Source: Alphaproteobacteria bacterium MarineAlpha9_Bin1 (GTDB taxonomy: Bacteria > Pseudomonadota > Alphaproteobacteria > TMED109). Taken from it: a DNA stretch of 53,882 bases. Shown piece after piece: positions 1-17,011 of the stretch. A program made the position numbers and the translations under genes. Each line of letters begins with the position of its first letter. The first letter of the stretch is position 1. The notes under the pieces are model-generated. The model was not told the origin of the DNA. It saw only the letters and a program-made list of their open reading frames with translations, and made no database searches. The stretch is taken from positions 1 through 53,882 of the forward strand of contig PTKJ01000001.1 in assembly GCA_002937675.1 (NCBI GenBank), read 5' to 3'.

Positions 1-1386
1 AAATTTTCTAATGGAGAAAAAGTATTAGCAGAAGATGTAATATACTCATGGAAATTATTAAAAGAGAAGGGAAGACCACATACTAGGTCATACTATTCCT
101 TGGTAAAAAAAGCATATTCACTGGGAAATCATTTAGTCCGGTTTGAATTTTCACAAAAAAGCAATTATGAAATGCCTTTAATAATTGGACTATTACCTAT
201 TCTTTCTAAGTCCTACTGGAAAGATAAAAATTTCAATAAGACAATCTTGGAGCCTATAGTCAGCTCTGGTCCTTATAAAATAAAAAAAATAGAGGCTGGT
301 AGGCTTATTATATATGAGAAGGATGTAAATTGGTGGCGAAAAAATAGTAAGGATAGTTCAGGCAGATATAATTTTCAATTTATAAGATATGATTTTTATA
401 GAGATGCAAATATTGCCTTAGAAGCATTCCTGTCAGGTGAATATGATATACATATTGAAAATGATTCGGTTAGATGGAAAACAAATTTGGTTAATAATAG
501 TCAAATTATAACCAAAACATATCCAAAAAAATCTCCCTCGGGAATAGAAGCTATTATTTTTAATTCTAGAAGAACACCTTTCGACGATATAAACGTGAGA
601 AAAGCTGTTTCTCTATTATTTCCTTATGACTTCATAAATAAAATTCTATTTCATAATTTACTTTCTAGAACCTATGGGCCGTGGGACAACAGTAATCTTC
701 AAGCAACTGAACAACCTAATCCTACTTCCTTCAGTATAATTTCTAAATATAAAGATCAAATTAGTCTCGAAGCATTAAAAATAATTAATATCAATAAACC
801 TCTAAATAATAGAGCCTTAGTGAAAAAAGCCTTAAATCTTTTAAATGAATCCGGGTGGAAATTAGAAAACAACAAAATGGTAAGCAAAAAGAATAAAAAA
901 AAATTAACGTTCTCAGTTATTACAAACCAGGCAAGAATGGAAAAATTACTGCTTGTATGGGCGCAACAATTAGAAAAAATAGGAGTTGACTTAAGAGTTC
1001 GTGTTACGGATAGCTCTCAATTTCAATACAGGCTACAAAGTTTTGATTTTGATTCAATTGTTTTTAAATATTACATGTCTCTTTCACCAGGAAATGAGCA
1101 ATACATATACTGGGGTAATTGGGCAGCAAGTCAAAGCGGGTCACGTAATTATGCAGGAATAAATCATCCAGCAATAGATGAAAGTATTAATGTGATCGTA
1201 AATTCTAAAAACAGGGATAAGCTTATAGAAGCAACACAAACACTTGACAGACTTTTGAGGGCAGGAAAATGGATGCTTCCATTATTTCACGATCCAGTTC
1301 ATAGAATCGCTTTTCAAAAAGATATAAAAATTCCTTCATCAATGCCTTTATATGGTTTTAATCCATGGGTATCTTGGCGTCAGTAA
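1..1386 (+). CDS. ABC transporter periplasmic substrate-binding protein, family 5 (peptide/YejA-like); the 5' end lies outside the window
   Basis: Frame 1 is open from nt 1 (KFSNGEKVLAEDVIYSWKLLKEKG...) and runs into the 100..1386 ORF. The FxxGxxxxAxDVxxSW block and overall layout are typical of SBP_bac_5 proteins. Confidence 0.7.
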   Translation, partial: KFSNGEKVLAEDVIYSWKLLKEKGRPHTRSYYSLVKKAYSLGNHLVRFEFSQKSNYEMPLIIGLLPILSKSYWKDKNFNKTILEPIVSSGPYKIKKIEAGRLIIYEKDVNWWRKNSKDSSGRYNFQFIRYDFYRDANIALEAFLSGEYDIHIENDSVRWKTNLVNNSQIITKTYPKKSPSGIEAIIFNSRRTPFDDINVRKAVSLLFPYDFINKILFHNLLSRTYGPWDNSNLQATEQPNPTSFSIISKYKDQISLEALKIININKPLNNRALVKKALNLLNESGWKLENNKMVSKKNKKKLTFSVITNQARMEKLLLVWAQQLEKIGVDLRVRVTDSSQFQYRLQSFDFDSIVFKYYMSLSPGNEQYIYWGNWAASQSGSRNYAGINHPAIDESINVIVNSKNRDKLIEATQTLDRLLRAGKWMLPLFHDPVHRIAFQKDIKIPSSMPLYGFNPWVSWRQ

Positions 1387-1452: not shown

Positions 1453-2463
1453 TTGACTTACAAAATAGACATTATAGGAAAATCAACCATAACAGTGGAT
1501 GATGGTGATTGCATATTAGAATCTGCACTTTCTCAAAAAGTGGATTTTCCACATGGTTGCAAATCTGGGAATTGTGGGGCATGCAAATCTAAATTAGTCT
1601 CTGGAGATATTTATATGATGCCATATTCAGAATTTGCACTAGAAGACTCTGAGAGAAAAAAAAAATTAATTCTAGCTTGTCGTGCTATACCTCAGACAGA
1701 TTGTAGTATTAAGATAGTTAACGAAAATAAAGAAAAAACTATTAAACAAAGCATAAAAGAATTAAAATATAAAGTTTCAAAAATAAACAAAGTAACAACA
1801 GATATAATTACTATAGAATTAGAAAATATTTCTGATAAAAAATTTAAGTTTTTAGCTGGACAATATGCAGAATTAAAATTTAGCAACTTGGATTCCAGAC
1901 AATTTTCTATGGCAAATTGTCCCTCAGAAGATAAATTAGAATTTCATATTAAAATACTGGGTGAGGGACTAGTAAGTGATTATGTTTCTAAAGAATTAAG
2001 TATAGAAGAAAAAGTTTTAATAACCGGTCCCTTCGGAAACTCTTATTTAAGAGAAAACCACAAGGGCCCAATATTATGTGTAGCAGGAGGAACCGGATTA
2101 GCACCTATTCTCTCTATAGCACTTTCTTATCAAGAGAAAAAAATGAAACAACCAGCCTATATATACGTAGGAGCTAAAACAGAAAATGATTTTTACTACC
2201 TGGATCAATTTATTAAAATAGCAAAGAATAATTCAAAATTTAAATTTTTTCCAATTATTTCGGAACAAAAAAATACTAGTAATTTTAGAACTGGACTAGT
2301 TACAGATGTTATAATAGAAGACATAGAAGACTTTGATGGATTTAAAGCATATTTAGCTGGACCTCCCCCAATGGTTGAAGCAGCAGAAAAGTTTTTTCCC
2401 AATCTTGGGCTTAATATAAATGATATTCATGCGGATGCTTTTTACAATAAATATGAGAATTAG
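1453..2463 (+). CDS. Oxygenase reductase: N-terminal plant-type 2Fe-2S ferredoxin fused to an FAD/NAD(P)H ferredoxin-reductase module (BenC/MMOR-type order)
   Basis: Cys cluster CKSGNCGACKSKL...LACR, flavin motif RQFSMAN, and NAD-binding GGTGLAP. TTG start with AGGAA upstream. Confidence 0.85.
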   Translation: MTYKIDIIGKSTITVDDGDCILESALSQKVDFPHGCKSGNCGACKSKLVSGDIYMMPYSEFALEDSERKKKLILACRAIPQTDCSIKIVNENKEKTIKQSIKELKYKVSKINKVTTDIITIELENISDKKFKFLAGQYAELKFSNLDSRQFSMANCPSEDKLEFHIKILGEGLVSDYVSKELSIEEKVLITGPFGNSYLRENHKGPILCVAGGTGLAPILSIALSYQEKKMKQPAYIYVGAKTENDFYYLDQFIKIAKNNSKFKFFPIISEQKNTSNFRTGLVTDVIIEDIEDFDGFKAYLAGPPPMVEAAEKFFPNLGLNINDIHADAFYNKYEN

Positions 2464-2469
2464 ATAAAA

Positions 2470-3414
2470 ATGGGTAAAGGATTATTAGAGAATAGAATTG
2501 CTATAGTATCAGGAGGAGCTAGAGGAATAGGAAAAGCAATTGCTTTTAGTCTAGCTCAACAAGGATGCAATATAGTCATTATAGATCCAGGATTTTCCAT
2601 AGAAGGTGAAGAAACTAATGAAAATAATTTAGTTCAAGAGACCGCAGAGACAATATCTAAGAAATACAATGTAAAAGTTTTAGGATATTCAAGTGATATT
2701 TCAGACTATGAAGTAGTAAAAAACATCTGTGATGAAGTAAAAAGTAGCTTTGGAAAAATAGATATTATAGTTAATAATGCTGCCATTTTAAGAGATAGTT
2801 TCATATTTAAATTAGATCAACACAGTTGGAGAAAGGTAATCGATACTAATCTTTCTGGTTCTTTCAATCTTACTTCATGTTCTAGCAAGATTATTAGAGA
2901 GCAAACTAAAAATGACTCTAGTTATTCTGATGGAAGAATTTTAAATATTATTTCCACAGCGGGAATATGGGGCAACTATGGACAAGCTGCCTATGCTTCT
3001 GCAAAGGCAGGATTAATGGCGCTCACGAGAGTTACTGCTCTAGATTTACAGAGGGCTGGCATTACTTGCAATGCAATTGCTCCATTCGCTTCTACAAGAG
3101 TTACAGAATCTATTAACCCACAAAATGAGGAACAAAAAAACTACAAATCTTCTGCTTTAAAAATTAAAGCACACTACGTAGGAGAATTGGCGTCAGCACT
3201 AGCTAGCAATAATGGTAAGAACATAACCGGGCAAGTATTTGGAGTAAGAGGAAAAGAAGTCTTTATTTTCAATAATGCAAATCCAGTGTATACTCATATA
3301 CGTAATTCGAATAATATAGAGGACCTAATAAAAGAGATTACAAATAATTTTACTAGACATTCTAGCCCACTTAAAACTGATTTAGAGGTGTTTTCTTCTG
3401 ATCCCATATTGTAA
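2470..3414 (+). CDS. Short-chain dehydrogenase/reductase, MFE-2-type (3R)-hydroxyacyl-CoA dehydrogenase-like
   Basis: VSGGARGIGKA glycine motif, NNAAILRDSF, GNYGQAAYASAKAG (YxxxK), and CNAIAPFASTRVTE. These blocks parallel the dehydrogenase domain of multifunctional enzyme 2 as I recall it. Confidence 0.75.
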   Translation: MGKGLLENRIAIVSGGARGIGKAIAFSLAQQGCNIVIIDPGFSIEGEETNENNLVQETAETISKKYNVKVLGYSSDISDYEVVKNICDEVKSSFGKIDIIVNNAAILRDSFIFKLDQHSWRKVIDTNLSGSFNLTSCSSKIIREQTKNDSSYSDGRILNIISTAGIWGNYGQAAYASAKAGLMALTRVTALDLQRAGITCNAIAPFASTRVTESINPQNEEQKNYKSSALKIKAHYVGELASALASNNGKNITGQVFGVRGKEVFIFNNANPVYTHIRNSNNIEDLIKEITNNFTRHSSPLKTDLEVFSSDPIL

Positions 3415-3431: not shown

Positions 3432-4139
3432 ATGAGCAATGATTTTATTCCCCCTAAAGTTGAGACTTGTGAAGAACTAGATAATCATCCTGCTGAATTT
3501 AAAGAGGCCATCATAAAGTTAGTAAGAAGCCATGCCGTCAATGAACTTTACGGCGCTAGAGTGTTTGATGAACCAGCAATTTCTCTTGCTCCTACCCCTT
3601 ATGCTAAATGGCTTACTTGCAGAGTAGCTATGGAGGAGTATGGTCATCACGTAAGATTTAAAGAACTAGGAGAAAAACTAAATATACCTTATGAACAAAT
3701 GACCCCAGAGGGTAAAAACCCATTATCAATATTTGAATTTCCCTTAAAGACATGGGAAGAGTTTTGTGTCATTAAACTTTTAGCAGATCTAGCAGAAATA
3801 TTACAGGTTGAAGATTTATTAGAATGCACCTTTCTACCGTTAAAAAATGTAGCGAAAATGACAATGCCTGAAGAAAAGTTTCACGCAAAGTTTGGAGAAG
3901 ATTTTACCACAGAAATTATTAAAACCGAAAAAGGTAAAAAAGAAATTCAGGATGCTATAAACCACTATTTTCCTATGCTTCCAGCTTTTTTTGGTCGCCC
4001 TAACTCTAAAAACAATGCTATTTATAGGAAGTGGGGAATAAAAAAAAGAAAAAACGAAGAAATGTTAGAGGATTATTTAAATATTACACATAAACTAGTA
4101 GTAGAAAAACTGTCGCTGGAGTTACCTAAAATTCATTAA
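3432..4139 (+). CDS. Ferritin-like di-iron oxygenase subunit, PaaA-like (phenylacetyl-CoA epoxidase catalytic-subunit family), short form
   Basis: Two ExxH motifs (MEEYGHH and PEEKFHAKFG). Blocks SHAVNELYGA and IQDAINHYFPMLPAFFG parallel PaaA QHAHSE, DEAGH, KEESFHQRQG and LQDAINRFWWP. Confidence 0.65.
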   Translation: MSNDFIPPKVETCEELDNHPAEFKEAIIKLVRSHAVNELYGARVFDEPAISLAPTPYAKWLTCRVAMEEYGHHVRFKELGEKLNIPYEQMTPEGKNPLSIFEFPLKTWEEFCVIKLLADLAEILQVEDLLECTFLPLKNVAKMTMPEEKFHAKFGEDFTTEIIKTEKGKKEIQDAINHYFPMLPAFFGRPNSKNNAIYRKWGIKKRKNEEMLEDYLNITHKLVVEKLSLELPKIH

Positions 4140-4182: not shown

Positions 4183-5226
4183 ATGGAAAACAATAATACA
4201 ACTAATAATTTTAAAAATAATTTTTATAACGATATTAAGCAATTACACCTAGCACCATTATGGGAAGTTTTGTCGAATCTTGTAACCACAAGCCCAAAGA
4301 CAAAAGCAGTTCCACACCTATGGAAATGGGAAAATATAAAAAAGCATGTCCTTACATCCGGAGAGGTAATATCAGCTGAAGAAGCTGAAAGGAGAGTACT
4401 CATTCTTGAAAACCCTGGAATGAAAGGAGAAAGCAAAATAACTGATACCCTTTATGCAGGACTGCAATTAATTCTTCCTGGAGAAATAGCTCCCAGCCAT
4501 CGACATACGCAATCGGCTTTGAGATTTATTATAGATGGGAATGGAGCATATACAACAGTAGATGGGGAAAAAACAACAATGCTTCCTGGAGATTTTATAA
4601 TTACACCTTCTTGGACATGGCATGATCATGGTAATGAATCTGATGAGCCTATGATATGGCTTGATGGACTAGATATACCTATAATTCAGCAATTTACTTC
4701 TAGTTTTACAGAAAGACTAGGGCAAAAAACTCAAATTATAAATAAACCAGAAGGAGATTCTTTAGCACGTTTTGGATCAGGATTACTTCCTGTTAATAAT
4801 ATTTCATTAAACAATAAAGTATCCCCTGTGTTTTCATACCCCTACAGTCGGACGCGTGAAGCTTTAGAAAAAATGAAGAATAGAGATAAATGGGATGAAT
4901 CTCATGGAATAAGATTAAAATATACTAATCCATTAAATGGTGGACACGCAATACCGACAATGGCAACTTTTATGCAATTACTTCCTAAATCTTTTAGTGG
5001 AAAATATAGCAGAAGCACAGATGGAACAATTTATTGTGTGATAGAAGGATTCGGAGAAACAGTGATTGGAGAAGAAAAATATAACTGGAGTAAAGGAGAT
5101 GTCTTTGTTGTTCCAGGTTGGTTTAAATTCAAACATAATACACAAGAAGAAGCCGTTCTGTTTTCGTACTCAGATAGGCCGGTTCAAGAAATGTTAGGTC
5201 TTTTTAGAGAAGAAGTTATGGAATAG
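4183..5226 (+). CDS. Gentisate 1,2-dioxygenase family bicupin
   Basis: 347 aa. Cupin 1 has PSHRHTQSALRFIIDGNGAYTTVDGEK...WHDHGN, and the second cupin has GDVFVVPGW. Both are typical of gentisate/1-hydroxy-2-naphthoate dioxygenases. Confidence 0.8.
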   Translation: MENNNTTNNFKNNFYNDIKQLHLAPLWEVLSNLVTTSPKTKAVPHLWKWENIKKHVLTSGEVISAEEAERRVLILENPGMKGESKITDTLYAGLQLILPGEIAPSHRHTQSALRFIIDGNGAYTTVDGEKTTMLPGDFIITPSWTWHDHGNESDEPMIWLDGLDIPIIQQFTSSFTERLGQKTQIINKPEGDSLARFGSGLLPVNNISLNNKVSPVFSYPYSRTREALEKMKNRDKWDESHGIRLKYTNPLNGGHAIPTMATFMQLLPKSFSGKYSRSTDGTIYCVIEGFGETVIGEEKYNWSKGDVFVVPGWFKFKHNTQEEAVLFSYSDRPVQEMLGLFREEVME

Positions 5227-5242
5227 GTTAACCTTAATTTCA

Positions 5243-5791
5243 ATGAATGGATCTACAGAAAATATTATTAATAAATTTAACAATTCAATTTTAGATATAA
5301 ATTGGTTTTCTAATATTGGAGAATTTAGTGAACAGAATACTCTAAAAGATGTAAACAATTATCTATGTTCTATAAATAGAGTTGCTACATTAAAAATAAT
5401 TTCTAGTTGGGATGATGCTTCTATAATAATAAATAGCCCAGAATTTGACAAAAATCTCTGGAAAGAGGAAGAAAACGAGAAAAAGTTACTTTATTTAGAT
5501 ATTATTAAAAACATTTCAAAAGAAGAATTAAGTAAATATTTATCTATTATAACCAAAACATCTTATGAAATTATTAATAATACTTTAATTGAGATAGCAA
5601 AAAAAAATAAGATCAGAGATCAATATTTTGTTAAAGTGGCTGGAGGAGCAGCAGGCTTAGCATGTCACCAAAAAACCCTAGCTTTGATATCTGAAGCAGG
5701 ACAAACTCACATGTTCCATACTAAATTTACACTATTCACATTGGGACATTGGCCACTCATGATAAGTAGGGATAAAATAAGTATTTTTTGA
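5243..5791 (+). CDS. Hypothetical protein (no recognisable motif)
   Basis: 182-codon ORF on the same strand, 16 nt after the dioxygenase and 28 nt before the thioesterase. No signal peptide. Confidence 0.5.
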   Translation: MNGSTENIINKFNNSILDINWFSNIGEFSEQNTLKDVNNYLCSINRVATLKIISSWDDASIIINSPEFDKNLWKEEENEKKLLYLDIIKNISKEELSKYLSIITKTSYEIINNTLIEIAKKNKIRDQYFVKVAGGAAGLACHQKTLALISEAGQTHMFHTKFTLFTLGHWPLMISRDKISIF

Positions 5792-5819: not shown

Positions 5820-6257
5820 ATGACCTTAAAAAAAAATATATATAAAATAACAGTTAATTGGGGGGATTGTGATCCAGCAGGAATAGTATTCTACCCAAAT
5901 TTTTATAAATGGATGGATGAAGCTCACTGGGACTACTTTGATCAGATAGGTCAATCAATTATAAAACTTAAAAAACAATATAAAATTATAGGTTTGCCAC
6001 TACTGCAAACCAGCGGTATCTACTATAAACCTTGCAAACAGGGTGATAATTTGGAATTAGAAACTAGATTAATAGAGCTAAAAAAATCCAGCCTTAGACT
6101 TCAATATATTATAACTAATAAAGGACATATTGCATCTATCGGATATGAAGCAAGAATATGGGCTAAGAAAAAAGATACTAATATTTCTTCTCAGACCATA
6201 CCGTTCAGAGTTAAGAATGAATTACTAAAATACATCAAAGATGAAATAATATTATGA
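5820..6257 (+). CDS. Hotdog-fold acyl-CoA thioesterase, 4-hydroxybenzoyl-CoA thioesterase/YbgC family
   Basis: N-terminal VNWGDCDPAGIVFYPNFYKWMDEA matches the DxDxxGxVxxxxY signature. About 145 aa. Confidence 0.8.
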   Translation: MTLKKNIYKITVNWGDCDPAGIVFYPNFYKWMDEAHWDYFDQIGQSIIKLKKQYKIIGLPLLQTSGIYYKPCKQGDNLELETRLIELKKSSLRLQYIITNKGHIASIGYEARIWAKKKDTNISSQTIPFRVKNELLKYIKDEIIL

Positions 6258-7495
6258 AATCAAATATCGGAATAAACAAAAATAGACTCATAAAAAGTAT
6301 CGAGGAAATGGCCCAAATTGGCGCTACTGCCAAAGGGGGTGTTAACCGACAGGCTTTAACTGATTTAGATAAAGTATCAAGAGATTTATTCATAAAATGG
6401 TGCAAAAACGAAAACTTAAAAATTACCATAGATAAAATGGGAAATATATTTGCTAGGAGACAAGGTAAAAACAATAATCTTCCTCCAATCTTAAGCGGTA
6501 GCCATTTAGACACCCAACCGACTGGTGGTAAATATGACGGGGCTTTAGGAGTTTTGTCTGCTTTGGAGGTTATACGAAGTTTAAATGACATAAAATATAT
6601 CACCGAAGCTCCTTTAGAAATCGTTGTATGGACTAATGAAGAAGGCTGTCGTTTTCCACCTGCTATGACTGGCTCTGCCGTTTTTTCAGGCCAGTATAAC
6701 TTAAATGATGCATTATTAATTGAAGATTTAGATGGTAAAACTCTTGGAGAAGAACTTTCTAGAATAAAATATAATGGTAAAACAAATTGTAGACCTAGAA
6801 AAATAGGTGCTTTCATAGAAACACATATAGAACAAGGACCAATTCTAGAAATTGCAGATAAATCAATTGGTGTAGTTGTAGGCTCTCAAGCACAAAAATG
6901 GTATGAAGTTAACATTGTTGGCATGGAAGCACATGCGGGTCCTACTCCTATGAACAAAAGAAAAGATGCTCTCGTTGGAGCTTCAAATATTGTTTTGCTA
7001 GTCAACTCCATAGGTAATAAATTTCAGCCAGGTGGATGTTCTACCTGTGGAGTTTTAAATATCAAATCACCTTCAAGAAACGTAATACCTGGTGAATGTT
7101 TTCTAACTATAGATTTTAGACACCCTAGTGATCAAAGACTTAAAGAGATGGATAAAAATTTGAGATTAGAAATAAAAAAAATTGCAAATAATTATAATTT
7201 GAAAATTTCCATTAAACAGATTTTGGAGCTCAAATCGAAATCTTTTAATAAAAAAGTTAGAAAAACTATTGAAAAAGTCTCTTCAAATTTAGAGCTACCA
7301 CATCAAGAAATTATTTCTGGTGCAGGACATGATGCTGTAAACATAAATGATATTGCCCCTACTGGAATGATTTTTATTCCTTGTGTAGATGGAATAAGTC
7401 ATAATGAAACAGAAAAAGCTTTAAAAAAAGATATATCAGCAGGCGCGCAGGTATTGCTACACTCTATGATTGAGCTTGCAGATAATACTAAATGA
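6254..7495 (+). CDS. M20 Zn-dependent amidohydrolase (allantoate amidohydrolase / N-carbamoyl-L-amino-acid hydrolase / beta-ureidopropionase subfamily)
   Basis: GSHLDTQPTGGKYDGALGVLSALEV, WTNEEG, and GAGHDA. ATGA overlap with the upstream thioesterase. Confidence 0.85.
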   Translation: MKSNIGINKNRLIKSIEEMAQIGATAKGGVNRQALTDLDKVSRDLFIKWCKNENLKITIDKMGNIFARRQGKNNNLPPILSGSHLDTQPTGGKYDGALGVLSALEVIRSLNDIKYITEAPLEIVVWTNEEGCRFPPAMTGSAVFSGQYNLNDALLIEDLDGKTLGEELSRIKYNGKTNCRPRKIGAFIETHIEQGPILEIADKSIGVVVGSQAQKWYEVNIVGMEAHAGPTPMNKRKDALVGASNIVLLVNSIGNKFQPGGCSTCGVLNIKSPSRNVIPGECFLTIDFRHPSDQRLKEMDKNLRLEIKKIANNYNLKISIKQILELKSKSFNKKVRKTIEKVSSNLELPHQEIISGAGHDAVNINDIAPTGMIFIPCVDGISHNETEKALKKDISAGAQVLLHSMIELADNTK

Positions 7496-8430: not shown

Positions 8431-9273
8431 ATGTCACTAAATAAAACAGATCTTAATGACGCAAAGAATTTTTATGAAGAAAACGGGGTTGCCGTTCTAA
8501 GAAATGTTCTTGATGAAAAATACCTAGAACCTATGCGGAAAGCTATAGATAACGTATTGCAAAACCCTGGTTCTGCTTCTATTGAATATACACCTCCTAA
8601 TGAAAAAGGAAGGTATTATGGGGACTTTTTTATTTGGAGAACTAATGAAACATTTAAAAATTTTGCCTTCAAATCAGTTTTACCCGAAATTGCAGCAAAT
8701 ATTTCAGAAAGTAAAAAAATAAATTTTTTTTATGACCAGTTGCTTGTCAAAGAACCAAGTACTAAAGAGCTAACTCCATGGCATCATGACCTTCCTTATT
8801 GGCCTATAAGAGGACAAAAAATTATTTCCATTTGGGTACCTTTTGATGATGTAACAAAGGAAACAGGAGCAGTCGAATATATAAAAGGTTCACATAAGTG
8901 GAACAAAATGTTTGCTCCCGCTTCTTTTGGCAAAAAAACTAAATTTTCTGATTTATACGATAAAATGGGATTAGAAAAAATACCTGATATTGACTCCAAC
9001 AAAGGTAATTATGACATTATTTCTTGGGATGTAAAACCAGGAGATATAATCCTTCATCATCCTTTAGTTTTACATTCGTCATCTGGAAATTCATCTTCTG
9101 CAAAGAGAAGAAGAGGGTTGGCTCTCCGATATGTCGGAGAAGATGTAGTTTGGGATGGTAGGGAAGGAACATTTATGGAAAATAAAAAGATCCAAAAACT
9201 TTTACCTCCAATAAATTTAAATGATGGTGACATTCTAACAAGTGAGTTGTTTCCCGTTATCTGGCAACAGTAG
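8431..9273 (+). CDS. Fe(II)/2-oxoglutarate dioxygenase, phytanoyl-CoA dioxygenase (PhyH) family
   Basis: WHHDLPYWP (HxD) with distal His in ILHHPLVLHSS and Arg in RRGLALRY. 280 aa. Confidence 0.75.
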   Translation: MSLNKTDLNDAKNFYEENGVAVLRNVLDEKYLEPMRKAIDNVLQNPGSASIEYTPPNEKGRYYGDFFIWRTNETFKNFAFKSVLPEIAANISESKKINFFYDQLLVKEPSTKELTPWHHDLPYWPIRGQKIISIWVPFDDVTKETGAVEYIKGSHKWNKMFAPASFGKKTKFSDLYDKMGLEKIPDIDSNKGNYDIISWDVKPGDIILHHPLVLHSSSGNSSSAKRRRGLALRYVGEDVVWDGREGTFMENKKIQKLLPPINLNDGDILTSELFPVIWQQ

Positions 9274-9282
9274 AACCGACGG

Positions 9283-10056
9283 ATGCTAAATTATATTTGC
9301 AGCACAAGTGAAGATAAAACACCTTTAATTTTAATACATGGGATAGCAGGTACCTCAAAAGTATTCGAACCACAAATTAATGAGTTTGGTAAACAATACT
9401 ACGTCATCTCCATAGATTTGCCAGGATATGGGAGGTCTTCAATGCTAGAAAATACCAGTATTTCTAGTTATGCTAATGCTGTTTATGATTTTTTGATTTC
9501 TCATGCATTAGAATCTCCTATTTTGTTAGGGCATTCATTAGGTGGAATGATTGTTCAAAAAATTATCACTCAACACCCATCGTATGCAAAAGCATCCATA
9601 TTAGTTGGAACTTCATCTAAATTTGGCGGCAATGATGTATTATGGCAAAAACACTTTATAAATTCTCGCTTAAGACCATTAAATGAAGGAAAAACTTTAG
9701 CAGAAATTTCTGAATCATTGATAAATAATATAGTTGGCCCCAAGACTGAAAAAAAAATTATTAAGTTTGCATCTAACATTATGTCTTCTATATCTGATAA
9801 GTCCTACAGAGTAGCTATAAACTCTTTAATAGGTTTTGATCTTAAAAATAAATTATCAAGTATATCTATTCCGACATTATTAATTGCTGGAGAAAATGAC
9901 AACCAAGCTCCTGCCAAAATAATGCGAAGAATGTCTGAGAATATAAAACTAAGCCAGTTTGTAGTAATTAATGAGTGTGGACATTTAATAAACATTGAAA
10001 AGCCTGTTGATTTTAACAATGCTCTAAAAGATTTTTTTATAAAATATAATCTTTAA
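9283..10056 (+). CDS. Alpha/beta-fold hydrolase (enol-lactonase / MhpC / deformylase-like)
   Basis: LILIHGIAGT oxyanion region, nucleophile elbow GHSLGG, and C-terminal ECGHL. Confidence 0.85.
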   Translation: MLNYICSTSEDKTPLILIHGIAGTSKVFEPQINEFGKQYYVISIDLPGYGRSSMLENTSISSYANAVYDFLISHALESPILLGHSLGGMIVQKIITQHPSYAKASILVGTSSKFGGNDVLWQKHFINSRLRPLNEGKTLAEISESLINNIVGPKTEKKIIKFASNIMSSISDKSYRVAINSLIGFDLKNKLSSISIPTLLIAGENDNQAPAKIMRRMSENIKLSQFVVINECGHLINIEKPVDFNNALKDFFIKYNL

Positions 10057-10073
10057 AAAAGTAAGGAAAAAAA

Positions 10074-11336
10074 ATGCAATCTAAAGACCTTAAATTTGAT
10101 GAACCCATGTTTGAAAGTAAGGCTTTTCAGCTTACAGATGAAGAAGAGAAAATTTGTAAAAAAGCTCGGGAGTTAGGAAGTGAAAAATTCGCCCCAAGAG
10201 CTTATCAATATGATGACGAAGCAAAATTTCCAACAGAAAATTACAAAGATCTGCATAAAGAAGGGTTTCTTGGAATATGCATACCCAAAGAAAATGGGGG
10301 ATTGGGTGCAAGCTTTAGATGTTATACATTAGCAGCAGCGGAAATAGGAAGATACTGTGGATCTACAGCTCTAACCTGGAACATGCATGTATGTTCAACT
10401 CTTTGGACCGGATCTCTTACAGATGATTTAAATATGCCAAATAACATATACCAAGAGCACCGTAAACAGAGAACTATCCACTACAATCGCATAATAAATG
10501 ATGGAGCTATTTACTCTCAACCTTTCTCTGAGAGCGGAAGTGCGGCAGCAGGAACAACTCCCTTTTCTACTATCGCTGAACCTGTAAAAAATGGATGGAG
10601 AATAAATGGGAAAAAGATATTTGCATCCTTAGCTGGACATGCTTCTTATTACGGTATTCTTTGTACTGAAAAATTAGCTGACAAAGAGCCAAGTCAAAAA
10701 AACACCCTTTATCTTGCTATTCCTGCTAATCAAGAGGGAGTAAGTGTTATAGGAGATTGGAATCCTCTTGGGATGAGAGGTACAGTATCAAGAACTCTTA
10801 TTTTCAAAGATGTATTTGTTCCTAACGAATCCGCTTTAATGCCTAGAGGTATGTATTTTGAAGCAGCAAGAAGATGGCCACACATGTTTTTAACGTTATC
10901 ACCTACTTATGTGGGTTTAGCTCAAGCTGCATTAGATTTTACGGTCAAATATCTCAGAGGAGAACTACCAGGAACCCCTCCCATAAAAAGAAGAATGTAT
11001 CCTACCAAACAAATAACTGTGGCTGAAATGCAAATACAATTAGAATCTTTAAAAGCATTATGGTTTCAAAGTATTTCAGAAGCCTGTGTTGACCCTAGTC
11101 CAGCACAAATAAAAAGAGCTTATGCCACACAGTTTTCAGTAATGGAAGGAGCACATAAAATCGCTCAATTAGCTATCAGAACATGTGGAGGGCAAGCAAT
11201 GCTCAAATCATTGTCTTTAGAGAGGATTCTCAGAGATAGCCGTTGTGGCTCCTTAATGCTCCCATGGACTGCAGAAATATGTCTAGATAGATTAGGCAAA
11301 GTCTCTCTTTACAACCCAGGAGAAACTGATCAGTAA
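10074..11336 (+). CDS. Acyl-CoA dehydrogenase-fold flavoprotein (atypical; may be a dehydrogenase or an ACAD-fold oxygenase)
   Basis: 420 aa with ACAD-like blocks (KEGFLGICIPKENGGLG, YSQPFSESGS, WNPLGMRGT, ERILRD). The usual C-terminal YEG Glu position reads LPW. Confidence 0.75.
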   Translation: MQSKDLKFDEPMFESKAFQLTDEEEKICKKARELGSEKFAPRAYQYDDEAKFPTENYKDLHKEGFLGICIPKENGGLGASFRCYTLAAAEIGRYCGSTALTWNMHVCSTLWTGSLTDDLNMPNNIYQEHRKQRTIHYNRIINDGAIYSQPFSESGSAAAGTTPFSTIAEPVKNGWRINGKKIFASLAGHASYYGILCTEKLADKEPSQKNTLYLAIPANQEGVSVIGDWNPLGMRGTVSRTLIFKDVFVPNESALMPRGMYFEAARRWPHMFLTLSPTYVGLAQAALDFTVKYLRGELPGTPPIKRRMYPTKQITVAEMQIQLESLKALWFQSISEACVDPSPAQIKRAYATQFSVMEGAHKIAQLAIRTCGGQAMLKSLSLERILRDSRCGSLMLPWTAEICLDRLGKVSLYNPGETDQ

Positions 11337-11343
11337 AAGTCAG

Positions 11344-12906
11344 ATGAAAAATAATTTATATAAATACATAGAAGAACATTCTATTAATAACCCAGAAAAA
11401 ATAGCGATAAATTTTGAACAGACTACTATAAATTATCTTCAATTATTTAATAGAATTGAATTACTAGCCTCATATATATCTATAAATTTAAAATGTAAAA
11501 AGGGAGACAGAATTGCAATTCTATCTTTAAATAGAATAGAATTTATTACTCTTTTTTATGCTTGTTCTAAATTAGGAACCATTTTAGTTCCCATTAATTG
11601 GAGGCTAACAAAATATGAAATAACAAATATTCTTAAAAATGTGACTGCAAAATTATTATTTACTGAATTAGAATTTAAAAACACTATAAGTGAACTGTAT
11701 ATTAACATTCCTAAACTAAGAATAATTGGGATAGATTTTATTCCCCAAACAAAATTATCTTTAAAAAATAGCATAAAAATTAATAAAAATTCAGAAGTCA
11801 AAAAAATTATTAGTGATTTTAATCACCCCATACTTATTGTTCACACGTCAGGTACGACAGGACAAGCAAAAGGAGCAGTTCTATCACAAAAAGCTGTTTA
11901 TTATAATATATTGAACAGCATACATATGCACAAATTGGAAAAATCAGATCATATTCTAACAGTAATTCCCTTATTCCATGTAGGTGGCTTAAATATTCAA
12001 ACCATTCCTGCTATACACATTGGTGCTACAGTTACTTTACATAGAAAGTTTGATTTGAAAGAAACATTTAAAGCATTAAAATTATTAAAACCTACATTTA
12101 CAGTATTCGTACCAACGATCATGGAAGCAATTCTAAATTTTAAAGATTGGAGTCCTCTAAAATTTTCTTCATTAAAAGCAATTACTACTGGATCTACAAT
12201 AATTGCTCCCGATTTAATAAAAACTTATGAAGAAAACAATATTCCTATAATCCAAGTTTATGGTTCTACTGAAACTGGACCAATTGCCGTCTGCCAGAAT
12301 TTATCCGAGAAAAGGAAACCATACGGAAACTCGGGTACACCAGCATTATACACGAAAGCGGAAATTTTTAATAATAAAAATGAAATGGTAAAAAAAAATA
12401 TTATTGGTGAGATTGGTATCCGTGGACCTAATTTATTTTCTTACTACTGGAAAGATAAAAAAGAAACAAAAAAAGCTTTTATTAATGGCTGGTTTATGAC
12501 AGGGGATTACGCAAAAAAAAATGAAAAGAACCAATTTTTTATAGCAGGACGAAAAGAGAATATAATTATATCAGGAGGAGAAAATATTTACTCTGCAGAA
12601 TTAGAACAAGTGTTTTTAAAAGAAAAAAATATAGAAGAAGCTGCAGTTATTGGAATCCCAGATAAAAAATGGCAAGAAATACCTATAGCTTTTGTGAAAA
12701 CAAAAAAACAATTTAAATTGAATGAATATCTAATTAATAATAACTTAAAAAAAAAACTAGCAAAATATAAGATACCTAGAATATTAATTAAAATAGATGA
12801 GATTCCTAAAAATGCCTTAGGAAAAATTGATTATAAATTGCTAAGAGACTATTATAACGACTTAAAATCAAGAAAGAAATTAAAGAAAACAAGTAATGTT
12901 ATTTAG
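11344..12906 (+). CDS. AMP-dependent acyl/aryl-CoA ligase
   Basis: AMP-binding motif HTSGTTGQAKGAVLS, YGSTETG, and GWFMTGD. C-terminal lysine in PKNALGKIDYK. Confidence 0.85.
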   Translation: MKNNLYKYIEEHSINNPEKIAINFEQTTINYLQLFNRIELLASYISINLKCKKGDRIAILSLNRIEFITLFYACSKLGTILVPINWRLTKYEITNILKNVTAKLLFTELEFKNTISELYINIPKLRIIGIDFIPQTKLSLKNSIKINKNSEVKKIISDFNHPILIVHTSGTTGQAKGAVLSQKAVYYNILNSIHMHKLEKSDHILTVIPLFHVGGLNIQTIPAIHIGATVTLHRKFDLKETFKALKLLKPTFTVFVPTIMEAILNFKDWSPLKFSSLKAITTGSTIIAPDLIKTYEENNIPIIQVYGSTETGPIAVCQNLSEKRKPYGNSGTPALYTKAEIFNNKNEMVKKNIIGEIGIRGPNLFSYYWKDKKETKKAFINGWFMTGDYAKKNEKNQFFIAGRKENIIISGGENIYSAELEQVFLKEKNIEEAAVIGIPDKKWQEIPIAFVKTKKQFKLNEYLINNNLKKKLAKYKIPRILIKIDEIPKNALGKIDYKLLRDYYNDLKSRKKLKKTSNVI

Positions 12907-13909: not shown

Positions 13910-13931
13910 TAAAAAATAAAATTCTAAAATA

Positions 13932-14501
13932 ATGTTAAATTTAATCTTTAAAATTTCCAATAAACTTCTATTAACTTTTTGTGTATTGGCTCTTACTATT
14001 TTAGTTATTATCACTGTGGTAGATGTGTTTGGCAGATATATTCTTGGATTACCATTGCCTGGAACATCTGAGATCACAGAAATACTTTTAGCTATTTTGG
14101 TATATATAGGGCTGCCCTACATATGCAGAGATGAAGGACACGTCACTGTTTCTATAATTTCTAATAGCCTAAAATATTCTCTTGCTCGGATACATAGCGT
14201 AATAATAAATGCAATTTCTTGTATTATTTTGCTTATTATTTCAAAACAATTATACGACCATGGTATTAATTTATATTCTTATAATGATATAACTACGTTT
14301 TTGGAAATTCCAAAAGCTCCGATAGCATTTTTGATGTCATTTCTTACATTATTAGCTTCAATAATGACTTTATTAAACTGCTACAACTACTTAATAGATA
14401 AAAGGTCTGTTAAAACTCAGTCTCCTGAAGATAGGATGTACGCTGCATATAAAAGACCAGGGATAATAGAATCATCTCTAGATGAAAAAGACCAGGAATA
14501 A
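13932..14501 (+). CDS. TRAP transporter small permease (DctQ family)
   Basis: 189-aa protein with four predicted TM segments, lying between the DctP and DctM genes. Confidence 0.75.
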   Translation: MLNLIFKISNKLLLTFCVLALTILVIITVVDVFGRYILGLPLPGTSEITEILLAILVYIGLPYICRDEGHVTVSIISNSLKYSLARIHSVIINAISCIILLIISKQLYDHGINLYSYNDITTFLEIPKAPIAFLMSFLTLLASIMTLLNCYNYLIDKRSVKTQSPEDRMYAAYKRPGIIESSLDEKDQE

Positions 14502-14535
14502 ATCATGAAAATAATAATAAAAGTGTTATTTTAAA

Positions 14536-16871: not shown

Positions 16872-17011
16872 TTTCACCTCATTAAAATGATCTTATCATT
16901 ATCAATATTCCAACAAAAGCTAGCATTATAAAAAATATTATAGAAATAAAAAATTATTTTTTAACAATAAATTATATTGCATTGCTTATTATTAAACATT
17001 TATCCTGCGTT

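What the first reader, a model, noticed from the sequence alone, without database searches (positions are those of the whole stretch)
3432..4139. Stand-alone, shortened PaaA-like di-iron subunit without PaaB/C/D partners, paired with a reductase of the opposite domain order to PaaE
The 235-aa protein keeps both ExxH iron-ligand motifs and several PaaA-like blocks. It is about 70 residues shorter than E. coli PaaA as I recall it, and no PaaB, PaaC or PaaD-like ORF is nearby. The only redox partner (1453..2463) has ferredoxin at the N-terminus followed by FNR, as in BenC/MMOR. PaaE has FNR followed by ferredoxin. This would be a minimal two-component version of a normally multi-subunit oxygenase.
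Basis: partly seen in the sequence, partly recalled or inferred. Interest (0 to 1): 0.65.

Follow-up and report, generated by a model that had tools for sequence, protein, structure and literature searches.

The report
Short PaaA-like di-iron oxygenase, gentisate cluster
A short iron-containing oxygenase related to PaaA sits in a conserved, uncharacterised gene cluster, with a reductase, a dehydrogenase and a protein of unknown fold, that probably converts CoA-activated aromatic acids into gentisate for ring cleavage in marine and soil bacteria.

Summary
ORF 3432-4139 (+) encodes a 235-aa PF05138 protein. It keeps all six PaaA di-iron ligands (E38, E69, H72, D119, E148, H151). Its model superposes on PaaA at 1.6-1.8 Å, and it lacks PaaA's C-terminal ~70 residues. 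No PaaB, PaaC or PaaD is encoded anywhere in the 54-kb window. The adjacent reductase has ferredoxin before FNR (BenC/MmoC type), not the PaaE order.

The "minimal two-component" reading is only partly right. Relatives occur in 460 representative genomes. In the 80 loci fetched, the gene sits in a conserved module:
- reductase;
- a (3R)-hydroxyacyl-CoA-dehydrogenase-like SDR;
- the PaaA-like protein;
- gentisate 1,2-dioxygenase;
- a 182-aa protein (U182) with no Pfam family and no PDB fold match.

The module often also carries a benzoate/3-hydroxybenzoate-type CoA ligase, a 4-hydroxybenzoyl-CoA-type thioesterase and a transporter. U182 and the SDR are the most tightly linked partners.

My best reading is a new aryl-CoA oxygenase system that makes gentisyl-CoA. 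One plausible route is benzoyl-CoA epoxidation, ring opening and SDR re-aromatisation. Thioester hydrolysis and ring cleavage would follow. The substrate and the role of U182 are inferred, not shown. I found no description of this module in the searchable literature. I rate it a new variant of a known kind, of moderate to high interest.

The parts
1453..2463 (+). NAD(P)H:ferredoxin-type reductase, with an N-terminal plant-type [2Fe-2S] ferredoxin followed by FAD- and NAD-binding FNR domains (BenC/MmoC order). Presumed electron donor to the di-iron protein.
   Evidence: Pfam Fer2 10-81, FAD_binding_6 107-197, NAD_binding_1 210-312. NCBIfam best hits are BenC (208.6 bits) and MmoC (184 bits), both full-length and below their cut-offs; PaaE matches residues 106-332 only. 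Found upstream of the oxygenase in at least 57 of 69 loci.
2470..3414 (+). 314-aa short-chain dehydrogenase of the (3R)-hydroxyacyl-CoA dehydrogenase / MFE-2 type. It has a GxxxGxG motif, an Asp at the end of beta-2 (inferred NAD preference) and a YxxxK motif.
   Evidence: Pfam adh_short 4.4e-40. Best PDB match is 2et6, a (3R)-hydroxyacyl-CoA dehydrogenase, at 2.1e-57; MFE-2 and 17beta-HSD4 also match. Adjacent to the oxygenase in 68 of 74 loci, and also in the sister-clade locus L085.
3432..4139 (+). The finding itself: a 235-aa PaaA-like di-iron carboxylate oxygenase with ligands E38, E69-x-x-H72, D119 and E148-x-x-H151. F101 corresponds to PaaA Phe108. R64-V65 replace PaaA's Ala-Lys68.
   Evidence: The AF2 model has pLDDT 94.9. 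Foldseek: PaaA TM 0.85-0.86 at rmsd 1.6-1.8 Å; SSO1313 0.83; PaaC 0.79; BoxB 0.70. Median 69% identity to orthologues in distant lineages.
4183..5226 (+). Gentisate 1,2-dioxygenase (bicupin).
   Evidence: NCBIfam TIGR02272 equivalog, 529.1 bits against a cut-off of 442.1. Two Cupin_2 domains. Directly downstream of the oxygenase in 53 of 69 loci.
5243..5791 (+). U182, a conserved 182-aa protein of unknown family and fold, mostly helical with a small C-terminal sheet. Candidate accessory subunit or intermediate-processing enzyme of the oxygenase.
   Evidence: No Pfam, NCBIfam or PDB sequence hit for it or for 22 orthologues. 216 homologues, all unnamed or called 'hypothetical protein'. Invariant residues: W21, F22, G26, Y40, W56, W73, E76, D126, A133-G135-A136, K161, G168-x-W170-P171-L172. 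The AF2 model has pLDDT 92.5, but the best PDB fold match is E 0.87 with TM below 0.3. Unrelated to the PaaA/PaaC profile. Present in 64 of 69 loci, and it stays next to the oxygenase where the dioxygenase is absent. A gammaproteobacterial orthologue is supported by hhalign at probability 98.7%.
5820..6257 (+). Hotdog-fold aryl-CoA thioesterase of the 4-hydroxybenzoyl-CoA thioesterase (4HBT class I / YbgC-like) type. Presumed gentisyl-CoA thioesterase.
   Evidence: Pfam 4HBT_2 and 4HBT. Best PDB matches are the 4-hydroxybenzoyl-CoA thioesterases 5wh9 (3.3e-20) and 1bvq (7e-12). The characterised gentisyl-CoA thioesterase BH1999 belongs to this same subfamily (PMC516016). A thioesterase is present in 26 of the 80 loci.
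6254..7495 (+). M20 amidohydrolase of the allantoate amidohydrolase / N-carbamoyl-amino-acid hydrolase type. Its start overlaps the thioesterase stop by 4 nt. Probably a lineage-specific addition to the operon; its role is unknown.
   Evidence: NCBIfam NF006769, 583.7 bits against a cut-off of 452. Found at this position only in the closest relatives L001-L003.
100..1386 (+). 3' part of a family-5 ABC solute-binding protein gene, truncated by the window edge. It lies upstream of the module in the low-GC marine clade; other lineages carry a TRAP transporter and a MarR regulator instead.
   Evidence: Pfam SBP_bac_5 1.7e-43, starting at profile position 70. Orthologues in L001-L011 are about 585-600 aa. 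TRAP DctPQM and MarR in other loci.

Best explanation
ORF 3432-4139 encodes the catalytic di-iron subunit of an uncharacterised oxygenase system that acts on an aromatic acyl-CoA thioester. The system feeds the gentisate ring-cleavage pathway.

Proposed sequence of steps:
1. An aromatic carboxylate is taken up. The transporter is ABC-type here and TRAP-type in other lineages.
2. It is activated to its CoA thioester. Related loci carry a benzoate/3-hydroxybenzoate-type AMP-forming ligase or an NDP-forming acyl-CoA synthetase.
3. The Fd-FNR reductase passes NAD(P)H electrons to the di-iron centre, which activates O2 and oxygenates the ring of the aryl-CoA.
4. The product is processed with the help of U182 and of the (3R)-hydroxyacyl-CoA-dehydrogenase-like SDR to give gentisyl-CoA.
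5. The 4HBT-type thioesterase releases gentisate.
6. Gentisate 1,2-dioxygenase opens the ring.

The most economical chemistry that uses every conserved component is this. Benzoyl-CoA is epoxidised, as BoxB and PaaA do. The epoxide is opened with water to a 2,5-dihydroxy-dihydrobenzoyl-CoA, possibly by U182. The SDR then oxidises the beta-hydroxyl with NAD+ and re-aromatises the ring to gentisyl-CoA. This parallels the BenABC-BenD logic.

Shown: protein identities, ligand completeness, fold, gene linkage and phyletic spread.

Inferred: the CoA-thioester substrate, gentisyl-CoA as product, the epoxide/diol route, and any role of U182.
For: Protein identity:
- PF05138 match with all six ligands invariant, and a model that superposes best on catalytic PaaA.
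- PaaA's substrate-orienting Phe108 is conserved as invariant F101, within a shared SIF-x-(Y/F)-P motif.

Gene arrangement:
- Gaps of 6-43 nt between six co-directional genes.
- The order reductase, SDR, PaaA-like, gentisate dioxygenase, U182 is conserved across Alphaproteobacteria and Arenicellales.
- The dioxygenase scores above the curated equivalog cut-off.

Links to CoA thioesters:
- The thioesterase is closest to 4-hydroxybenzoyl-CoA thioesterases, the subfamily that includes the characterised gentisyl-CoA thioesterase BH1999.
- The SDR is closest to (3R)-hydroxyacyl-CoA dehydrogenases.
- Cluster-encoded ligases are best matched by 3-hydroxybenzoate-CoA ligase HbdA and the benzoate-CoA ligase family.
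- A Stellaceae variant carries an NDP-forming acyl-CoA synthetase.

Links to the gentisate pathway:
- A maiA-type isomerase follows the cluster in L070.
- Routes to gentisate through gentisyl-CoA are established with other hydroxylases: PhgABC (PMC7862547 and PMC11848710) and SdgC/salicylyl-CoA (from the literature hits and my own knowledge).

Conservation: the oxygenase is far more conserved (median 69% identity) than its neighbours (25-56%), as expected for a catalytic core with several partners.
Against: - There is no biochemical evidence for any member of this clade.
- The window itself has no aryl-CoA ligase inside the module. The nearest AMP-ligase (11344-12906) is a different type, only 21-28% identical to the cluster ligases of other loci.
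- Only 14 of 80 loci show a ligase and 26 of 80 a thioesterase within the flanks.
- The window encodes no maleylpyruvate isomerase or hydrolase.
- In some Stellaceae loci the SDR, PaaA-like and U182 genes occur without an adjacent reductase or gentisate dioxygenase. The core may therefore serve other end-points.
- A direct aromatic hydroxylation would not need an SDR, and nothing shown here proves a non-aromatic intermediate.
- U182 has no recognisable catalytic motif.
- PaaA's Lys68 'lysine bridge' is not conserved (V65), so electron transfer or chemistry may differ.
- Transcription evidence is weak: three read-length contigs in one run labelled as a metatranscriptome.
Confidence: 0.55

Rival explanations
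1. The enzyme is a direct aromatic hydroxylase of an already hydroxylated aryl-CoA. Candidates are a 3-hydroxybenzoyl-CoA 6-hydroxylase, a salicylyl-CoA 5-hydroxylase, or a 4-hydroxybenzoyl-CoA 1-hydroxylase with an NIH shift. In each case the reductase plus the di-iron protein make gentisyl-CoA in one step. The SDR and U182 would then have accessory or unrelated roles such as assembly, regulation or detoxification.
For: The cluster ligases score best against 3-hydroxybenzoate-CoA ligase HbdA. Single-step gentisyl-CoA-forming hydroxylases exist, though with other cofactors (PhgA; SdgC from the literature). PaaA attacks the ipso/ortho bond (C1-C2), which is the position needed for an NIH-shift route.
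Against: This reading does not explain why a hydroxyacyl-CoA-dehydrogenase-type SDR is linked to the oxygenase more tightly than the reductase or the dioxygenase (68 of 74 loci). The SDR also accompanies a 49%-identical sister-clade gene. The HbdA scores are far below the cut-off (280-366 against 1000), and the benzoate-CoA ligase family scores nearly as well.
Confidence: 0.25
2. The core of SDR, PaaA-like protein and U182 acts on some other CoA ester or on a free acid, for example an alicyclic, heteroaromatic or amino-substituted substrate. The link to gentisate dioxygenase would hold only in some lineages, and gentisyl-CoA would not be the general product.
For: Stellaceae loci have the core without an adjacent dioxygenase or reductase, next to a C26 amidotransferase-like peptidase and an alpha/beta hydrolase. 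The window and its closest relatives add an M20 amidohydrolase and a peptide-type binding protein. Other short PaaA-like clades sit in quite different settings: an NRPS/aminodeoxychorismate-type cluster in Streptosporangium, and an enoyl-CoA hydratase / acyl-CoA dehydrogenase cluster in Rokubacteria.
Against: The dioxygenase lies directly downstream in 53 of 69 loci across two proteobacterial classes. It scores as a true gentisate 1,2-dioxygenase. The thioesterase and ligases are of the aryl-CoA type.
Confidence: 0.12
3. It is a genuine PaaA, the phenylacetyl-CoA 1,2-epoxidase catalytic subunit, as JGI annotates many homologues. Its PaaB, PaaC, PaaD and PaaE partners would be encoded elsewhere in the genome.
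For: PaaA is the best-scoring named family. Source annotations read 'ring-1,2-phenylacetyl-CoA epoxidase subunit PaaA'.
Against: It scores 81.7 bits against the equivalog cut-off of 280. It lacks PaaA's C-terminal ~70 residues and Lys68. It falls in a clade separate from the long canonical PaaAs. No paaB, paaC, paaD, paaG, paaZ or paaJ is found in the window or in the 80 loci. Its conserved neighbours belong to the gentisate pathway, not the phenylacetate pathway.
Confidence: 0.03
4. It is a non-catalytic, PaaC-like structural or ferritin-like protein.
For: Its length (235 aa) is close to that of PaaC (248 aa). The fold also matches PaaC (TM 0.79).
Against: All six metal ligands are present and invariant. 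The NCBIfam PaaC score is only 26.6 against a cut-off of 133. The fold match to PaaA is better.
Confidence: 0.02

Closest known systems
PaaABC(D)E phenylacetyl-CoA 1,2-epoxidase (E. coli PaaA; PDB 3PW1, 3PVR, 4IIT)
   Same: Same Pfam family and ferritin-like fold (TM 0.85-0.86, rmsd 1.6-1.8 Å, 24-27% identity). Identical six-residue di-iron ligand set. Phe108 equivalent is conserved. Electrons presumably come from an NAD(P)H-dependent Fe-S flavoprotein, and the context points to a CoA-thioester substrate.
   Different: About 70 residues shorter at the C-terminus, so it lacks the Leu286 'door' segment. Lys68 of the lysine bridge is replaced (V65, with R64 next to it). No PaaB, PaaC or PaaD. The reductase has the opposite domain order, Fd-FNR (BenC/MmoC-like) instead of FNR-Fd. 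The conserved partners are an SDR and the unknown protein U182. The downstream enzymes are a thioesterase and gentisate dioxygenase rather than PaaG, PaaZ and PaaJ.
BoxAB benzoyl-CoA 2,3-epoxidase (Azoarcus evansii BoxB; PDB 3PM5, 3Q1G)
   Same: A di-iron aryl-CoA epoxidase working with one separate reductase and no PaaB/C-type subunits. Benzoyl-CoA is a candidate substrate here too. The fold is related (TM 0.70).
   Different: BoxB is about 475 aa and only distantly similar (E 5e-3; TIGR03225 20 bits against 499). BoxA is a different kind of reductase. The Box pathway continues with hydrolytic ring cleavage by BoxC, not with re-aromatisation and dioxygenolytic cleavage.
SSO1313 of Sulfolobus solfataricus (PDB 4MUD), an uncharacterised 235-aa 'ring oxidation complex / phenylacetic acid degradation-like protein'
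   Same: A short stand-alone PF05138 protein of the same length. TM 0.83 on the query and 0.88 on the target.
   Different: Only about 20% identical and from a different clade. It has no known function or partners, so it gives no functional information.
Gentisyl-CoA-forming routes: PhgABC (4-hydroxybenzoyl-CoA 1-hydroxylase with NIH shift, Brevibacillus), SdgABC (salicylyl-CoA 5-hydroxylase, Streptomyces) and the gentisyl-CoA thioesterase BH1999 (B. halodurans)
   Same: Same pathway logic: CoA ligation, ring hydroxylation on the thioester, hydrolysis by a 4HBT-type thioesterase, then gentisate 1,2-dioxygenase.
   Different: To my knowledge, which I could not verify here, the hydroxylases of those systems are not PaaA-type di-iron proteins. 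Those systems have no U182 and no obligatory SDR.
BenABC-BenD (benzoate 1,2-dioxygenase plus cis-diol dehydrogenase)
   Same: A BenC-like Fd-FNR reductase (208 bits) and an SDR that could re-aromatise a non-aromatic oxygenated intermediate (established knowledge for BenD).
   Different: The oxygenase there is a Rieske non-haem iron dioxygenase acting on the free acid. Here it is a di-iron carboxylate protein, presumably acting on a CoA ester.

Membership tests
PaaA, catalytic subunit of phenylacetyl-CoA 1,2-epoxidase (TIGR02156) | PF05138 ferritin-like four-helix-bundle domain | tested here: met
   Pfam 82.6 bits against 28.5. Foldseek TM 0.85-0.86 to PaaA chains.
PaaA, catalytic subunit of phenylacetyl-CoA 1,2-epoxidase (TIGR02156) | Six di-iron ligands (Glu42, Glu72, His75, Asp126, Glu155, His158) | tested here: met
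   E38, E69, H72, D119, E148 and H151 align with them and are invariant in 37 sequences.
PaaA, catalytic subunit of phenylacetyl-CoA 1,2-epoxidase (TIGR02156) | Score at or above the curated equivalog cut-off | tested here: not met
   81.7 bits against a cut-off of 280.
PaaA, catalytic subunit of phenylacetyl-CoA 1,2-epoxidase (TIGR02156) | Full length of about 309 aa, including the C-terminal segment that covers the substrate entrance, and the Lys68 lysine bridge | tested here: not met
   235 aa, aligned to PaaA ~18-241. Lys68 aligns with V65. Canonical long PaaAs carry Ala-Lys there and form a separate clade.
PaaA, catalytic subunit of phenylacetyl-CoA 1,2-epoxidase (TIGR02156) | Encoded with PaaB, PaaC, PaaD and an FNR-Fd reductase PaaE, within a paa operon | tested here: not met
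   None in the 54-kb window and none in the conserved neighbourhood of 80 loci. The reductase has the Fd-FNR order. Presence elsewhere in the genomes could not be tested.
PaaA, catalytic subunit of phenylacetyl-CoA 1,2-epoxidase (TIGR02156) | Epoxidises phenylacetyl-CoA | not testable with these tools
   Needs an enzyme assay.
PaaC, non-catalytic structural subunit (TIGR02158) | Same fold but without the metal-ligand set; scores above the PaaC cut-off | tested here: not met
   The ligands are complete. 26.6 bits against 133.35.
BoxB benzoyl-CoA 2,3-epoxidase (TIGR03225) | A ~470-aa di-iron protein scoring above the cut-off and encoded with boxA and boxC | tested here: not met
   20.1 bits against 499.1. 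235 aa. No BoxA- or BoxC-type neighbours.
Bacterial multicomponent di-iron monooxygenases (sMMO / phenol / toluene type) | Fd-FNR (MmoC-type) reductase | tested here: met
   MmoC model 184 bits over residues 14-331, same domain order, below the equivalog cut-off.
Bacterial multicomponent di-iron monooxygenases (sMMO / phenol / toluene type) | Alpha-beta(-gamma) hydroxylase and a small MmoB-type effector protein | tested here: not met
   No such ORFs in the cluster. The U182 model matches no PDB fold, which rules out effector, PaaB and DUF59 structures.
CoA-dependent gentisate pathway module | Gentisate 1,2-dioxygenase above the curated cut-off, adjacent to the oxygenase | tested here: met
   TIGR02272 529.1 bits against 442.1. 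Adjacent in 53 of 69 loci.
CoA-dependent gentisate pathway module | Aryl-CoA ligase and 4HBT-type (gentisyl-CoA) thioesterase | tested here: inconclusive
   The thioesterase is present in the window and is closest to 4-hydroxybenzoyl-CoA thioesterases. A benzoate/3-hydroxybenzoate-type ligase is present in 14 related loci but not inside the window's module. Substrate specificity is untested.
CoA-dependent gentisate pathway module | Maleylpyruvate isomerase or hydrolase downstream | tested here: not met
   None in the window. A maiA-type isomerase is present in Arenicellales locus L070.

The most novel reading that the evidence does not exclude
The four proteins (Fd-FNR reductase, short PaaA-like di-iron oxygenase, the novel-fold protein U182 and the hydroxyacyl-CoA-dehydrogenase-like SDR) form a previously unrecognised type of aryl-CoA oxygenase. 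This system would convert benzoyl-CoA to gentisyl-CoA by epoxidation, U182-assisted ring-oxide opening and dehydrogenative re-aromatisation. That would give a genetic basis for the old biochemical observation, recalled from Zaar et al. 2001 and not verifiable here, that some aerobes turn benzoyl-CoA into gentisate. It would also define a third aerobic 'hybrid' CoA-dependent aromatic pathway, beside Paa and Box, common in marine and soil Alphaproteobacteria.
Probability: 0.3. Interest if true: 0.8.

Novelty: new variant of a known kind. Interest (0 to 1): 0.62.

Why it matters
Aerobic "hybrid" pathways that oxygenate aromatic CoA thioesters are known from two systems, Paa and Box. Both use di-iron epoxidases and then open the ring hydrolytically. 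This module would couple the same kind of enzyme to re-aromatisation and classical dioxygenolytic cleavage through gentisate.

It uses a different subunit architecture and a partner protein whose predicted fold matches nothing in the PDB. It is not rare. Relatives occur in 460 of the representative genomes scanned, and the window's own version is found nearly identical in many seawater metagenomes. Current annotation as "PaaA" or "phenylacetic acid catabolic protein" therefore probably mis-assigns aromatic-carbon fluxes in ocean and soil models.

The system is small (four genes) and occurs in at least one cultured strain, so the hypothesis is directly testable.

Tried and rejected
- U182 as a remote PaaC-, PaaB- or MmoB-like subunit. 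Rejected: hhalign against the PaaA-like profile gives no similarity. Pfam and PDB sequence searches of 23 orthologues are empty. Foldseek of a confident model finds nothing.
- U182 as a downstream gentisate-pathway enzyme. Unlikely, because it stays next to the oxygenase in loci that lack the dioxygenase.
- A 205-aa ORF after a 41%-identical PaaA-like gene in a Streptosporangium NRPS cluster as a distant U182 homologue. Only a C-terminal GWWPIG motif matches (hhalign probability 26%) and HMMER gives E = 11. Not supported.
- Promoter and terminator scan. No enrichment over shuffles in this AT-rich DNA, so uninformative.
- Transcript evidence. One run labelled as a metatranscriptome has three 151-nt contigs on the oxygenase and thioesterase genes. 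Two vent metatranscriptomes gave only spurious 19-21-nt matches. Too weak to use.
- Literature. Seven full-text searches for gentisyl-CoA, PaaA-like, PF05138, benzoyl-CoA plus gentisate, and SAR11/SAR116 found no description of this module. Six primary papers were looked up by PMC id and are not held: Zhuang 2004 (BH1999), Gescher 2002, Chen 2014, Rather 2011 (BoxB), and an id recalled for Grishin 2011 (PaaAC). What I say about them, and about Zaar 2001 (known only as a citation), beyond what other papers cite is from memory.
- Locus L084 (38%-identical cluster representative) turned out to be a frameshift-ridden 1x long-read contig of the same module and added nothing.
Full report
**1. The observation**

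The window is low-GC DNA (about 30-37% per 2-kb bin, mean about 32%) from a marine alphaproteobacterium. It encodes a GcrA regulator, and its closest loci are Pelagibacterales- or 'Rhodospirillaceae'-labelled MAGs at about 90% protein identity.

ORF 3432-4139 (+) starts at an ATG preceded by AAGGA and encodes 235 aa. It matches Pfam PaaA_PaaC (PF05138) at E 3.5e-23. Among curated NCBI families PaaA scores best, but at 81.7 bits it is far below the 280-bit equivalog cut-off. PaaC and BoxB score much lower.

Against solved structures by sequence, the best matches are E. coli and Klebsiella PaaA (E about 1e-14). Next comes the 235-aa Sulfolobus protein SSO1313 (4MUD, 1e-10), then BoxB (5e-3).

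The review PMC4498308 lists the PaaA iron ligands as Glu42, Glu72, His75, Asp126, Glu155 and His158. In the alignment, where the PDB index is the residue number plus 2, these align with E38, E69, H72, D119, E148 and H151. All six are invariant in an alignment of 37 family members.

An AlphaFold2 model (pLDDT 94.9) superposes on the following:

| Target | TM-score | rmsd |
|---|---|---|
| PaaA | 0.85-0.86 | 1.6-1.8 Å |
| SSO1313 | 0.83 | 2.4-2.5 Å |
| PaaC | about 0.79 | 2.2-2.4 Å |
| BoxB | about 0.70 | about 5 Å |

The alignment covers PaaA residues ~18-241. The missing ~70 residues are therefore PaaA's C-terminal segment, which contributes Leu286 to the lid over the substrate entrance. PaaA's Phe108 is conserved as invariant F101. 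Lys68 of the 'lysine bridge' is not conserved: V65 takes its place, with an invariant R64 beside it.

ORF 1453-2463 is a reductase with the domain order Fer2, FAD-binding, NAD-binding. BenC and MmoC match it full-length, whereas PaaE matches only the FNR part.

Pfam scans of essentially every gene-sized ORF in the window found no PaaB, no PaaD/DUF59 and no second PaaA/PaaC-like protein. A local HMM search agreed.

**2. What surrounds it**

The gene is the third of six co-directional genes separated by 6-43 nt:

| Coordinates | Gene |
|---|---|
| 1453-2463 | Fd-FNR reductase |
| 2470-3414 | 314-aa SDR |
| 3432-4139 | PaaA-like protein |
| 4183-5226 | gentisate 1,2-dioxygenase (TIGR02272, 529 bits against a cut-off of 442) |
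| 5243-5791 | 182-aa ORF with no family hit ("U182") |
| 5820-6257 | hotdog thioesterase, closest to 4-hydroxybenzoyl-CoA thioesterases (5wh9, 3e-20) |

A seventh gene, an M20 amidohydrolase, overlaps the thioesterase stop by 4 nt. The SDR is closest to (3R)-hydroxyacyl-CoA dehydrogenases and to the dehydrogenase domain of multifunctional enzyme type 2 (2et6, 2e-57).

**3. Relatives elsewhere**

The protein has more than 2000 detectable homologues. Relatives are encoded in 460 of the representative bacterial genomes scanned. Most are Alphaproteobacteria: marine MAGs, Stellaceae, Ferrovibrio, Reyranellales and the cultured Desertibaculum subflavum. Some are Arenicellales (Gammaproteobacteria).

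In the 80 loci I fetched, the gene order reductase, SDR, PaaA-like, gentisate dioxygenase, U182 recurs. Counting only loci with enough flanking sequence gives:

| Neighbour | Loci with it adjacent |
|---|---|
| SDR | 68 of 74 |
| U182 | 64 of 69 |
| Reductase | at least 57 of 69 |
| Gentisate dioxygenase | 53 of 69 |

Some misses are artefacts of ORF calling in GC-rich DNA. Where the dioxygenase is absent, U182 directly follows the oxygenase gene (L017, L038, L040, L052, L065, L072). U182 is therefore tied to the oxygenase, not to ring cleavage.

Further recurrent neighbours:
- MarR regulators and TRAP transporters.
- AMP-forming ligases whose best models are 3-hydroxybenzoate-CoA ligase HbdA and the benzoate-CoA ligase family.
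- A second copy of the same thioesterase type.
- In Arenicellales, a maiA-type glutathione-dependent isomerase.
- In a Stellaceae variant, an NDP-forming acyl-CoA synthetase.

No PaaB, PaaC or PaaD appears in any of these neighbourhoods.

The oxygenase is unusually conserved. Its median identity to the window protein in the distant loci is 69%. The dioxygenase reaches 56%, the SDR 44%, the reductase 43%, the thioesterase 35% and U182 25%.

**4. U182**

Neither the window protein nor 22 orthologues hit any Pfam family at a meaningful level. A profile of them finds nothing in the PDB by sequence.

A profile search found 216 homologues, all unnamed or 'hypothetical'. They share invariant residues W21, F22, G26, Y40, W56, W73, E76, D126, A133, G135, A136, K161, G168, W170, P171 and L172.

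The AlphaFold2 model is confident (pLDDT 92.5). It is mostly helical with a small sheet formed by residues 49-52 and the C-terminus. Foldseek against the PDB gives no match better than E 0.87 and TM 0.29.

U182 therefore does not resemble PaaB, PaaC, PaaD/DUF59 or the MmoB-type effectors, all of which have solved structures. It is also unrelated to the PaaA-like profile.

**5. The wider family**

An exhaustive search of 50%-identity cluster representatives gave 390 clusters at E ≤ 1e-3. I aligned 80 full-length sequences: 75 of these representatives, the window protein and four members of its own family. Of the 80, 47 carry the complete E-E-H-D-E-H ligand set.

The long proteins (about 290-380 aa) carry the PaaA-type Phe and Ala-Lys signature and form one clade in a rough neighbour-joining tree. 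The window's family forms a separate tight clade. Its nearest relatives are other ~235-240-aa proteins at 41-49% identity.

Contexts of three of these relatives:
- A 49%-identical one is again preceded by a 308-aa SDR.
- A 41%-identical one lies in a Streptosporangium NRPS cluster next to an AMP-ligase and a chorismate-utilising enzyme.
- A 29%-identical Rokubacteria one lies among enoyl-CoA hydratases, an acyl-CoA dehydrogenase, a ligase and a thioesterase.

Short, ligand-complete, PaaB/C/D-less PF05138 proteins are thus a broad and uncharacterised set, consistently linked to acyl-CoA or adenylate chemistry. Shortness alone is not anomalous.

**6. Mechanism**

Shown:
- A catalytic-type di-iron protein with a candidate electron donor encoded beside it.
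- Tight linkage to a hydroxyacyl-CoA-dehydrogenase-type SDR and to U182.
- Frequent linkage to aryl-CoA ligases, an aryl-CoA thioesterase and a bona fide gentisate dioxygenase.

Inferred:
- The substrate is an aromatic acyl-CoA, and the product that leaves the module is gentisyl-CoA.
- The thioesterase hydrolyses gentisyl-CoA to gentisate. The characterised gentisyl-CoA thioesterase BH1999 belongs to the same 4HBT subfamily (PMC516016).

CoA-dependent routes to gentisate are established with other hydroxylases (PhgABC; SdgC from the literature).

I favour benzoyl-CoA as the substrate because that route uses every conserved part:
1. Epoxidation, the reaction type of both characterised aryl-CoA di-iron oxygenases.
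2. Opening of the arene oxide with water at C5 to give a 2,5-dihydroxy-2,5-dihydrobenzoyl-CoA, perhaps by U182.
3. NAD+-dependent oxidation of the C2 hydroxyl, which is beta to the thioester, by the SDR. This re-aromatises the ring to gentisyl-CoA.

Step 3 has precedents in BenD, EntA and BadH (established knowledge). The net reaction would be benzoyl-CoA + O2 giving gentisyl-CoA.

This would fit the report, recalled from Zaar et al. 2001 (J Biol Chem 276:24997; cited but not readable here), of NADH- and O2-dependent conversion of benzoyl-CoA to gentisate in a Bacillus stearothermophilus-like strain.

The main rival is a one-step hydroxylation of 3-hydroxy-, 2-hydroxy- or 4-hydroxybenzoyl-CoA, the last with an NIH shift. 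That rival leaves the SDR and U182 unexplained.

**7. Weak points**

- No member of the clade has been characterised.
- The window's module contains no ligase of the aryl-CoA type.
- The window has no maleylpyruvate-processing genes.
- Some Stellaceae loci have the SDR, oxygenase and U182 core without an adjacent reductase or dioxygenase.
- Transcription evidence is negligible.
- I could not test whether paaB and paaC occur elsewhere in carrier genomes.

**8. Novelty and verdict**

Seven full-text searches found no description of this module. Databases call the protein 'PaaA', 'PaaI' or 'phenylacetic acid catabolic protein', which the membership tests do not support.

It works like PaaA and BoxB, as a di-iron aryl-CoA oxygenase. 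It fails the defining tests for membership of either family: score cut-off, length, lysine bridge, partner subunits and pathway context.

I classify it as a new variant of a known kind with one novel component, U182. The 'two-component minimal oxygenase' interpretation is partly supported and should be replaced by a three- to four-component aryl-CoA oxygenase module of a CoA-dependent gentisate pathway.

Noticed in passing
window 6254-7495 (+), with 100-1386 (+): An M20 amidohydrolase of the allantoate amidohydrolase / N-carbamoyl-amino-acid hydrolase type (NF006769, 584 bits) is translationally coupled to the thioesterase by a 4-nt overlap. A peptide/opine-type ABC binding protein lies upstream of the module. 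Both occur only in the low-GC marine clade (L001-L003 for the amidohydrolase, L001-L011 for the binding protein). They hint that this lineage imports an amide or carbamoyl conjugate of the aromatic acid.
   Followed up: partly
window 8431-15834 (+): A second putative CoA-dependent catabolic cluster. It encodes a PhyH-family dioxygenase, an alpha/beta hydrolase, an acyl-CoA dehydrogenase (weakly like FadE16 and cyclohexanecarboxyl-CoA dehydrogenases), an AMP-forming ligase (o-succinylbenzoate / long-chain type) and a TRAP transporter DctPQM. A PhyH gene also lies about 6 kb upstream of the module in Arenicellales locus L070 (1044-1889, minus strand).
   Followed up: no
window 3432-4139 compared with loci L012-L080: The di-iron protein is conserved at a median of 69% identity across orders and classes. 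Its operon neighbours are at 25-56%. This is an unusually strong constraint for a catabolic enzyme.
   Followed up: partly
L081 2833-7872 (Streptosporangium sp., JBFAAE010000054.1): A 41%-identical short PaaA-like gene lies in a biosynthetic-looking cluster. The cluster has an NRPS module, a 205-aa unknown ORF, an AMP-ligase and a GATase plus chorismate-binding (aminodeoxychorismate/anthranilate synthase-like) protein. This suggests that a sister clade tailors an aryl acid in natural-product synthesis.
   Followed up: partly
L082 1-14449 (Candidatus Rokubacteria, JBFONC010002290.1): Two short PaaA_PaaC genes lie in a cluster with four enoyl-CoA hydratases, an HGD-D (2-hydroxyacyl-CoA dehydratase-type) protein, an SDR, an acyl-CoA dehydrogenase, a thioesterase, an AMP-ligase and an ABC transporter. 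No PaaB or PaaD is present.
   Followed up: no
window 37453-39297 (-), 15837-16877 (-), 18571-19251 (+): Three sizeable ORFs (614, 346 and 226 aa) have no Pfam match. The 614-aa ORF lies directly downstream of a XerC/D-type tyrosine recombinase gene (36535-37449, minus strand).
   Followed up: no
L070 10375-11259 and 14131-15960: In Arenicellales the module is interleaved with a DyP-type peroxidase and followed by a tungsten/molybdenum aldehyde:ferredoxin oxidoreductase (AFOR). Both are unusual companions for an aerobic gentisate cluster.
   Followed up: no
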